From Leucoraja erinacea (lineage: Eukaryota): a stretch of DNA of 64,000 nt. The notes beneath the pieces are model-generated. The model was not told where the DNA came from. It did not search any database and saw nothing but the letters and a program-made list of their open reading frames with translations. The stretch lies in assembly GCF_028641065.1 (NCBI RefSeq), contig NC_073380.1, positions 93,806,001 to 93,870,000 of the forward strand, read 5' to 3'. The translations under genes and the position numbers were made by a program. Numbering within the stretch: position 1 is the first letter of the stretch; the number at the start of each line of letters is the position of its first letter. Of the stretch, positions 35,374 through 36,160 are shown in pieces.

Positions 35374-36160
35374 CAGGGGTCAGCAACCTTGATCTGCATC
35401 GGGGCCAGGACCCATGACTGTGAGCGGATGGCGGGCCACGTCTATCGCCATTATTAATCAAGGGAGGTAATAATAGTCGCAGTTTTGTTTCGAAGGGCGC
35501 TGTACATGGAGGAGGTAGAGGGAGCCCAGTCAAAGTCAACCTCCCCTATCTCCACCGAGCCCACCAGTGAGGGAGGGGGAGGCGGGGGCCAGGAGGGCGG
35601 CTGCCTTTTCGGAGTGCCGGGATTACTAGCGTTGCACAGCCCACCTGCCGCTGCTCACCATCAAACCACCCAGCAACAGCTCGGTGAACATGAGCGACCA
35701 GGTCTGAGCCGCTGCTCTCAAACCCCCAGCAACAGCTCGGAAGAGCTGGTCTGAGCAAGACTCGCCGGCCCAACACCAGAGGCCCCCCACCCCCCCCCCC
35801 CCCCCCCCCCCGCGTCCCTGTCTCCGTCCACCAGGTCCCTCCCTCCCCCTTGCTGCTGGACCGCCCCAGCGAGGCCAGTCGCAACGGTAAGGAGGAGGCC
35901 AAGCTGTCTGATGGGGACAACGAGAGCCTGGACAGCACGCTCAACTCCAATGACACCATCAACTGCAGCATGGGCTCGTCGTCGCGGGACAGCCTGCCCG
36001 AGGCACCCTTCTGCCCACAGACCTACTTGCGGGAAACACGTCACAGCTGGAACTCCCCCACCCTCAACAACGAGTACAACAACAGCCAGTACCACGCAGG
36101 CCGGGCGATTATGGGTTACAGGCCGCATCCGGCCCGTGGGCCGTAGGTTGCCGACCCCTG
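35374..36160. mobile_element. hAT (Charlie-like) non-autonomous element carrying a gene fragment (inner)
   Basis: TIRs CAGGGGTC(A/G)GCAACCT 15/16; 8-bp flanks GCTTATTC / GTTTAGTC (6/8); subterminal ggccgcatccggcccgtgggccgtag. Confidence 0.85.
35642..36073 (+). pseudogene. IQSEC2: Captured, decayed fragment of an IQSEC (BRAG) Arf-GEF exon upstream of the Sec7 domain, most like IQSEC2
   Basis: [19 protein letters not shown] (35642-35698) vs [54 protein letters not shown]...[18 protein letters not shown] vs IQSEC2 [30 protein letters not shown]...QTYQRETRHSWDSPAFNN (recalled sequences; paralog assignment tentative). Confidence 0.8.

What the first reader, a model, noticed from the sequence alone, without database searches (positions are those of the whole stretch)
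35374..36160. Pack-hAT: DNA transposon carrying a piece of an IQSEC2-like Arf-GEF gene
Seen: TIRs and a degenerate 8-bp TSD bracket about 600 bp of GC-rich coding-like sequence with two colinear blocks ([49 protein letters not shown]...[10 protein letters not shown]), frameshifts, a poly-C run and a 16-bp internal duplication. Known (recalled): these motifs lie in IQSEC1/2 just N-terminal to the Sec7 domain. Similarity stops before Sec7 and I see no other IQSEC exon in the window. Inference: DNA-level capture of part of an exon and mobilisation, Pack-MULE/Pack-TIR style, which I have not seen described in chondrichthyans. Copies could yield antisense or small RNAs against the parent gene.
Basis: partly seen in the sequence, partly recalled or inferred. 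Interest (0 to 1): 0.8.

Follow-up and report, generated by a model that had tools for sequence, protein, structure and literature searches.

The report
Jumping gene carrying IQSEC2 exon piece
A broken cut-and-paste transposon in a cartilaginous fish carries about 600 bases of the IQSEC2 gene and sits at 14 places in the genome; the copies are decaying, and the source gene was not found in this assembly, likely because of an assembly gap.

Summary
Confirmed and extended. Window 35374-36160 is a non-autonomous hAT (Buster-like) element. Its interior is ~600 bp of IQSEC2 coding sequence, sister to shark IQSEC2. It occurs at 14 loci; 11 of 14 have both ends and their own 8-bp TSD, 5 perfect. Paralogous empty sites confirm the window's TSD (28 of 32 examined). 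A 2.4-kb relative with an open 595-aa transposase maps the junctions: arm, ~25 bp of transposase, cargo antisense to the transposase, arm. This fits gap-repair capture, two later deletions, then transposition. All copies are frameshifted and decay near neutrally. No RNA read lay on the cargo in the one run tested. The parent IQSEC2 was not found in the assembly, and neither was SMC1A. The cargo has 83% GC3, so an assembly gap (~70%) beats true loss (~22%). DNA versus cDNA template cannot be told, since the cargo likely lies within one exon. Pack-TIRs are known (Tan 2021), but multicopy vertebrate cases are rare. This scan noted a similar Pack-pogo element in a shark before (e1-8040238, unchecked).

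The parts
35281..36526 (+). Outer TA-flanked non-autonomous element (Tc1/mariner-pogo-like; label recalled from its TA flanks and TIR type) that hosts the hAT insertion
   Evidence: 28-nt inverted repeat, 93%; many paralogues (1782 and 227 candidates); structure
35366..35373 (+). Left copy of the 8-bp target-site duplication (two changes from the right copy)
   Evidence: Sequence; empty paralogous sites hold one copy of the 8-mer
35374..35474 (-). hAT arm with 16-bp TIR (35374-35389); corresponds to the 3' end of the transposase unit, bases 1-98 of the 2423-bp relative L113
   Evidence: blastn 82-87% to L112/L113
35475..35498 (-). Leftover fragment from inside the transposase gene (FETKL codons, ~767-792 of L113): scar of the capture junction and of a later deletion
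   Evidence: 22 of 22 identical to L112; also seen in the other type-A copies
35499..36095 (+). Captured IQSEC2 coding segment (from the TLY.E motif to the start of Sec7), broken by frameshifts; antisense to the transposase
35669..35760 (+). Duplication/insert seen only in this copy (exact 16-mer at 35669 and 35725; ~48 extra bp)
35790..35811 (+). Poly-C run in the proline-rich part of the cargo
36096..36160 (-). hAT arm with 16-bp TIR (36145-36160); transposase 5' side, bases ~2360-2423 of L113
36161..36168 (+). Right copy of the TSD, equal to the empty-site 8-mer, with TA at positions 4-5

Best explanation
This is one of 14 copies of a non-autonomous hAT (Buster-like) DNA transposon whose interior is ~600 bp of IQSEC2 coding sequence, likely copied in once during repair of a break inside a full-length element and then likely moved by the family's transposase. 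Shown: TIRs, distinct 8-bp nnnTAnnn TSDs, the empty site, IQSEC2 orthology, junctions mapped on a 2423-bp relative with an open 595-aa transposase, two deletion subtypes, and decay. Inferred step 1: a template switch replaced ~1.57 kb of the element (promoter side and the N-terminal two-thirds of the transposase) with IQSEC2 sequence in antisense orientation. Inferred step 2: two separate deletions shortened the other arm. Inferred step 3: a transposase acting in trans spread both subtypes in a burst. The copies then drifted 5-12% and likely have no function. The parent gene likely lies on a GC-rich small chromosome that this assembly lacks.
For: Copies: 14 loci carry the cargo (40 of 48 candidates scored, the rest of the list was poly-C noise; 25 of 25 scored, 13 element loci plus IQSEC1). 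TSDs: 11 of 14 loci have both ends with TSD matches of 6-8 of 8, all different; TA at positions 4-5 in 11 of 11 right-hand copies. That is the Buster consensus in PMC3517528 (passages). Empty site: 28 of 32 paralogous host sites. Transposase: L113 has both TIRs and an open 595-aa frame with D177-region, D243-region and E548-region motifs (catalytic roles recalled); Pfam Dimer_Tnp_hAT is over its cut-off on sister L112. Junctions: type-A and type-B copies share the same transposase-to-cargo junction but differ in arm deletion. Orthology: cargo groups with shark IQSEC2 at 100/99 support; 70-73% identical to shark IQSEC2 versus 51% to host IQSEC1. Decay: all 14 copies have frame-breaking indels; private changes are 67 of 216 synonymous, the neutral expectation being 0.308; the tree is star-like. 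Assembly gap: only IQSEC1 and an IQSEC3-like gene are found. The SMC hinge search found one SMC1 only, 43 of 64 residues identical to human SMC1A, read as SMC1B (reading recalled). Cargo GC3 is 83% versus 39% for host IQSEC1. Shark IQSEC2 often sits on small contigs (5 kb, 110 kb, 247 kb). GC-rich elasmobranch loci such as Hox C were long falsely 'missing' (PMC10620051, passages).
Against: The parent was never seen, so junction microhomology with the source cannot be checked. No ray or skate IQSEC2 turned up in three protein searches or the representative search, although ray IQSEC1 proteins are in the collection. No RNA read lay on the cargo at 80% likeness or more in run X24 (5% of the run, unknown tissue, human-like reads filtered). 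Pooled substitutions show a synonymous excess (0.379 versus 0.308 +/- 0.021; P=0.001 if counts are treated as independent). The excess comes from variants shared among copies and is not fully explained. The HUWE1 control found nothing but had no positive control. L113's own TSD is degenerate, and Pfam's hAT dimer domain did not score on L113.
Confidence: 0.85

Rival explanations
1. Same capture and spread, but the parent IQSEC2 has since been lost from this lineage (perhaps from rays and skates generally), so the 14 transposon copies are the only remaining record of the gene.
For: No IQSEC2 exon found in the assembly by IQ-exon, Sec7 or PH searches. No batoid IQSEC2 among protein hits, while Mobula, Pristis, Hemitrygon and Narcine IQSEC1 are held. 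Zero cargo reads in RNA run X24. The cargo branch is long (0.56 versus ~0.25 for sharks), as expected under relaxed selection.
Against: The essential gene SMC1A (a neighbour in human; recalled) is also not found. Several sharks also lack a listed IQSEC2 while whale shark has a fragment on a 5-kb contig. The column majority of the copies is an open frame of 195 codons, so the source was intact or only just dead at capture. Stretches withheld as N could hide the locus.
Confidence: 0.22
2. The cargo was copied from an IQSEC2 transcript or cDNA rather than from chromosomal DNA, as a template for break repair inside the element.
For: The cargo is purely coding, and its 3' end lies a few codons before the exon end seen in host IQSEC1.
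Against: No exon junction is spanned; there is no poly-A or TSD of its own; TE interior was replaced rather than interrupted. DNA templates are the described route for Pack-TIRs (PMC8277862, passages).
Confidence: 0.12
3. The loaded element came horizontally from another cartilaginous fish, so the cargo is a foreign IQSEC2.
For: No parent in the assembly. Buster elements are reported to move between species (PMC3517528, passage).
Against: The cargo is sister to, not nested in, the three shark IQSEC2 sequences. Matching autonomous and cargo-less relatives are abundant in this genome. The L002 insertion is shared by three organisms.
Confidence: 0.05
4. The fragment is a real exon of a surrounding IQSEC gene, or a retrocopy that landed in a MITE.
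For: A 150-codon open frame persists in the window.
Against: No other IQSEC exon near C4:93.8 Mb; frameshifts; 13 sister copies with the same junctions; no internal TSD or poly-A.
Confidence: 0.01

Closest known systems
Multicopy Pack-TIRs of vertebrates, e.g. Pack-hAT-N8_XT carrying CAPSL 5' UTR in Xenopus tropicalis (Tan et al. 2021, PMC8277862; abstract, passages, section 7 and one supplement search read)
   Same: hAT arms around a captured host fragment; several copies with distinct TSDs; GC-rich cargo; template-switch model
   Different: 14 copies rather than 3; coding cargo of ~195 codons; junctions mapped to an autonomous relative, with a transposase scar and two deletion subtypes; parent not found in the assembly (their pipeline needs a parent); cartilaginous fish (their only hit for shark or skate names, elephant shark, had 0 Pack-TIRs)
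[quoted passage not shown] Mar; PMC3517528, passages read)
   Same: 8-bp nnnTAnnn TSD, short CAGGG-type TIR, ~600-aa transposase with a Spin-doc zinc finger and hAT dimer domain, MITEs made by internal deletion
   Different: No transposase phylogeny was run here; this derivative carries host coding sequence
Pack-MULEs of plants (as described in PMC8277862 passages)
   Same: TIR element carrying GC-rich host gene fragments and amplified by transposition
   Different: Different superfamily (hAT), one cargo only, no sign of expression
   Same: DNA-transposon gene capture amplified in a cartilaginous fish
   Different: Other superfamily, other gene, other genome; reported at more than 100 copies

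Membership tests
hAT superfamily | 8-bp target-site duplication | tested here: met
   11 of 14 loci, 5 perfect; empty-site proof for the window
hAT superfamily | Short terminal inverted repeats (5-27 bp) | tested here: met
   16-bp TIR, 15/16
hAT superfamily | Cognate hAT transposase between the same ends | tested here: met
   L113: both TIRs, open 595-aa frame; PF05699 over cut-off on L112 (22.6 versus 21.4 bits), not reported on L113
Buster family of hAT | TSD consensus nnnTAnnn | tested here: met
   TA at positions 4-5 in 11 of 11 right-hand and 10 of 11 left-hand copies; consensus from PMC3517528
Buster family of hAT | Transposase falls in the Buster clade | not tested
   No tree built; Spin-doc zinc finger PF18658 hit only; no PDB relative
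Pack-TIR | Non-TE host sequence between TIR arms | tested here: met
   IQSEC2 orthology; junction map
Pack-TIR | Parental copy in the genome, free of the TE | tested here: inconclusive
   Not found; SMC1A also not found, so the assembly may lack the region
Multicopy Pack-TIR | Several copies with distinct TSDs | tested here: met
   11 different TSDs on 9 contigs
Pack-TIR | DNA (not RNA) template | tested here: inconclusive
   The homologous stretch of IQSEC1 lies in one open frame; no junction spanned
Processed retrocopy | Own poly-A tail and TSD | tested here: not met
   The 3' A-run is part of the hAT arm in L113/L114; no internal duplication at the cargo edges
Functional chimeric gene or regulatory RNA | Open frame under selection, or expression | tested here: not met
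   Frameshifts in 14 of 14 copies; private changes neutral; 0 cargo reads in one RNA run laid on L002.

The most novel reading that the evidence does not exclude
Rays and skates have lost IQSEC2, and this transposon family is its only fossil: 14 dated copies preserve ~195 codons of a vanished vertebrate gene.
Probability: 0.22. Interest if true: 0.65.

Novelty: new member of a known kind. Interest (0 to 1): 0.38.

Why it matters
Multicopy gene capture by DNA transposons is rare in vertebrate surveys (4 cases, 1.4%, in PMC8277862). This case has an unusually complete anatomy: the autonomous relative, a junction scar, two deletion subtypes, 11 TSDs and an empty site. That makes the template-switch model checkable. 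In practice the cargo is a ready probe for an IQSEC2 gene that was not found in this assembly or among the batoid proteins returned. It either flags a missing GC-rich chromosome or records a gene loss. It also warns that such copies can pass as IQSEC2 hits in annotation. Nothing here shows a function.

Tried and rejected
Pfam scans of the window's two cargo frames: 0 families; of the L024 transposase remnant: 0. A whole-protein own-genome search with shark IQSEC2 gave a machine error; a shorter piece answered. The HUWE1 DUF913 search found nothing but had no positive control, so it was given little weight. Run search: no RNA holder listed, which is no evidence either way. The read lay could not show parent-type loose ends because 1112 rows were cut from the output. 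Searches for a batoid IQSEC2 fragment: 2 hits among 59 candidates, read as mammal-like and teleost-like from their sequence; 24 representatives, best E 1e-22, 8 sequences viewed (7 of those hits plus P0244), none cargo-like. PDB search with the transposase: 0. The idea that the window copy is the founder, or an interior swap inside the high-copy composite element, was rejected: its host MITE keeps a segment that 17 of 18 scorable empty copies have (12 more not scorable) and 0 of 8 composite copies have, and its branch is not clearly longer than those of several sisters. Selection on the peptide was rejected (frameshifts, neutral private changes), with the unexplained shared synonymous excess noted. 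Literature: 8 searches listed no paper on this element; IQSEC2 + cartilaginous fish gave 0 papers, and skate + genome + SMC1A + HUWE1 gave 0. Repbase/Dfam could not be searched, so the family may already have a consensus there. The scan's notes held nothing by sequence or for this genome.

Full report
Observation. The 787-bp element at 35374-36160 has 16-bp TIRs (15/16) and an 8-bp flank match of 6/8. Its interior is 60-71% GC against ~40% around it. The element lies inside a second, TA-flanked element, 35281-36526. I examined 32 copies of that outer element: 30 loci (which scored 40 of 227 candidates) plus two. Of these, 28 show the site empty with one copy of the 8-mer, 2 hold a hAT (the window and L156), 1 is unclear and 1 was not located. 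The TSD is therefore real, and its left copy has mutated.

The cargo. The window frame hits human IQSEC2 in the PDB (E 1.1e-4). A better-kept sister copy (L002) gives four shark IQSEC2-type proteins as its top hits among 392. The column majority of ten copies, used as a yardstick, is one open frame of 195 codons, from the TLY.E motif to the RIG motif at the start of Sec7. So the two blocks are remains of one segment. In a 20-row tree the cargo groups with shark IQSEC2 at 100/99 support, as their sister, on a long branch (coelacanth and piranha rows dropped because the cut motif failed). It is 70-73% identical to shark IQSEC2 and 51% to the host's IQSEC1. Host IQSEC1 is 96% identical to a stingray's, 94% to an electric ray's and 93% to a bamboo shark's, so the host is a cartilaginous fish, most likely a batoid. 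The homologous stretch of host IQSEC1 lies in one open frame, so the cargo likely comes from a single exon and a DNA template cannot be told from a cDNA template.

The family. A DNA search with the cargo scored 40 of 48 candidates and found it at 14 loci; the remaining rows were poly-C noise. A protein search (25 of 25 scored) found 13 of these loci plus IQSEC1. Eleven of the 14 have both ends and their own TSD (5 perfect, 3 at 7/8, 3 at 6/8), all different, with TA at positions 4-5. That is the Buster consensus according to PMC3517528 (passages). The other three have one end degenerate or missing. Many cargo-less relatives share the ends (2387 candidates, 40 scored) and have varied interiors (12 viewed). 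One of these led to full transposases. L113 (C8) is 2423 bp with both TIRs and an open 595-aa frame; L112 scores PF05699 over its cut-off.

Mechanism. Mapped on L113, the loaded element is bases 1-98, then ~767-792 (from inside the transposase gene), then the cargo, then 2360-2423. The cargo thus replaced ~1.57 kb and lies antisense to the transposase. Three copies (L007, L010, L011) keep a longer arm and share a small insertion, but have the same transposase-to-cargo junction. I infer one capture in a long element, two later deletions, and then transposition. Replacement without a TSD or poly-A fits template switching during gap repair, the class of model in PMC8277862 (passages, section 7); this step is inferred. 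Ten copies differ from the yardstick by 5.5-11.7% at non-CpG sites, and a 13-copy tree is star-like, which fits a short, old burst. In DNA runs of three coded organisms, contigs match the L002 flank and element at ~98-99%, so that insertion predates their split or they are very close kin.

Function. All 14 copies carry frame-breaking indels (87 counted, inflated in the poly-C part). Pooled substitutions are more synonymous than simulated (pN/pS 0.64 versus 0.86 +/- 0.06; synonymous share 0.379 versus 0.308 +/- 0.021). Private changes, however, match neutrality (67 of 216), and distinct variants give 106 of 307; the excess sits in shared variants. In RNA run X24 (about 5% read) ~250-fold depth lay on the hAT end and none on the cargo, on either strand. 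This test used L002 as reference at 80% likeness. The window's copy may be too far from L002 to lay, the tissue is unknown, and human-like reads are filtered. The antisense idea is unsupported, not excluded.

The missing parent. PH-domain (13 of 13 candidates scored), IQ-exon (10 of 10) and Sec7 (48 of 48) searches gave IQSEC1 on C16 and an IQSEC3-like gene on C19, and no IQSEC2. For an assembly gap: the SMC hinge search (12 of 12 scored) gave one SMC1, 43 of 64 residues identical to human SMC1A and read as SMC1B (that reading, and SMC1A's place beside IQSEC2 in human, are recalled). Cargo GC3 is 83% versus 39% for IQSEC1. Shark IQSEC2 records lie on contigs of 5 kb, 110 kb, 247 kb, 9.5 Mb, 71 Mb and 114 Mb. 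Elasmobranch Hox C was long falsely missing for the same reasons (PMC10620051, passages). For true loss: no batoid IQSEC2, although four batoid IQSEC1s are held, and no cargo reads. Withheld stretches could also hide the locus. I put the gap at ~70%, loss at ~22%, and other explanations at ~8%.

Side finding. Eight other copies of the outer element carry a cargo-less hAT, whole (L156) or as one arm, at the same 8-mer and in the same orientation. The window's host copy keeps a segment that those eight lack and 17 of 18 scorable empty copies have, and its hAT arm lacks their diagnostic changes. So two separate hAT insertions likely hit the same site in paralogous copies, which points to a strong target preference.

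Comparison and verdict. Pack-TIRs are known in animals; hAT is the commonest carrier (208 of 370), and multicopy cases are rare (4, 1.4%), the example shown having 3 copies (PMC8277862, section 7). Elephant shark had none in that survey. Eight paper searches listed nothing on this element. PMC3597677 and PMC5381603 were seen as passages only and added nothing specific. Repeat libraries could not be searched. This scan has an unchecked note of a Pack-pogo element in a shark (e1-8040238). Verdict: a real, well-resolved new member of a known kind; interest 0.38, rising to ~0.65 if IQSEC2 proves lost.

Noticed in passing
window 36161-36168; L156, L129, L130, L132, L137, L138, L139, L144: Two apparently independent hAT insertions (cargo-bearing and cargo-less) at the same 8-bp site, in the same orientation, in paralogous copies of the outer MITE. 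The cargo-less one founded a composite family in which most copies viewed lost the hAT right arm.
   Followed up: partly
L113:2888-5310 (G000:C8 ~46.79 Mb); L112 and L116: hAT elements with open ~595-aa transposase frames. L112 (C5) and L116 (small contig C1011) are nearly identical, possibly a haplotype duplicate or a recent copy.
   Followed up: partly
G000 as a whole: SMC1A not found by the SMC hinge search, and HUWE1 DUF913 gave no match (weak test): a gene-rich, GC-rich chromosome piece may be missing or withheld.
   Followed up: partly
L007, L010, L011, element base ~71: Three cargo copies share a short insertion with an (AGTTCA)n repeat that looks like a retroposon tail carried along by the transposon.
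   Followed up: no
L150:3253-3382 (C6 ~51.83 Mb): An inverted partial second copy of the cargo's 3' end and right arm, ~1.2 kb from the main copy, ending in the inverse of the same TSD.
   Followed up: no
L019, L020, L022, L025, L028, L029, L030: Cargo-less sisters share an interior of short GC-rich tandem repeats of unknown origin; other sisters hold transposase remnants or pyrimidine-rich filler. Other captured cargos were not looked for.
   Followed up: no
L118:6415-7534: The IQSEC3-like large exon reads in two frames, which suggests a frameshift or a sequence error in the assembly.
   Followed up: no
window 41995-43148: A GC-rich (59%) repetitive stretch with long low-complexity open frames on both strands.
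   Followed up: no
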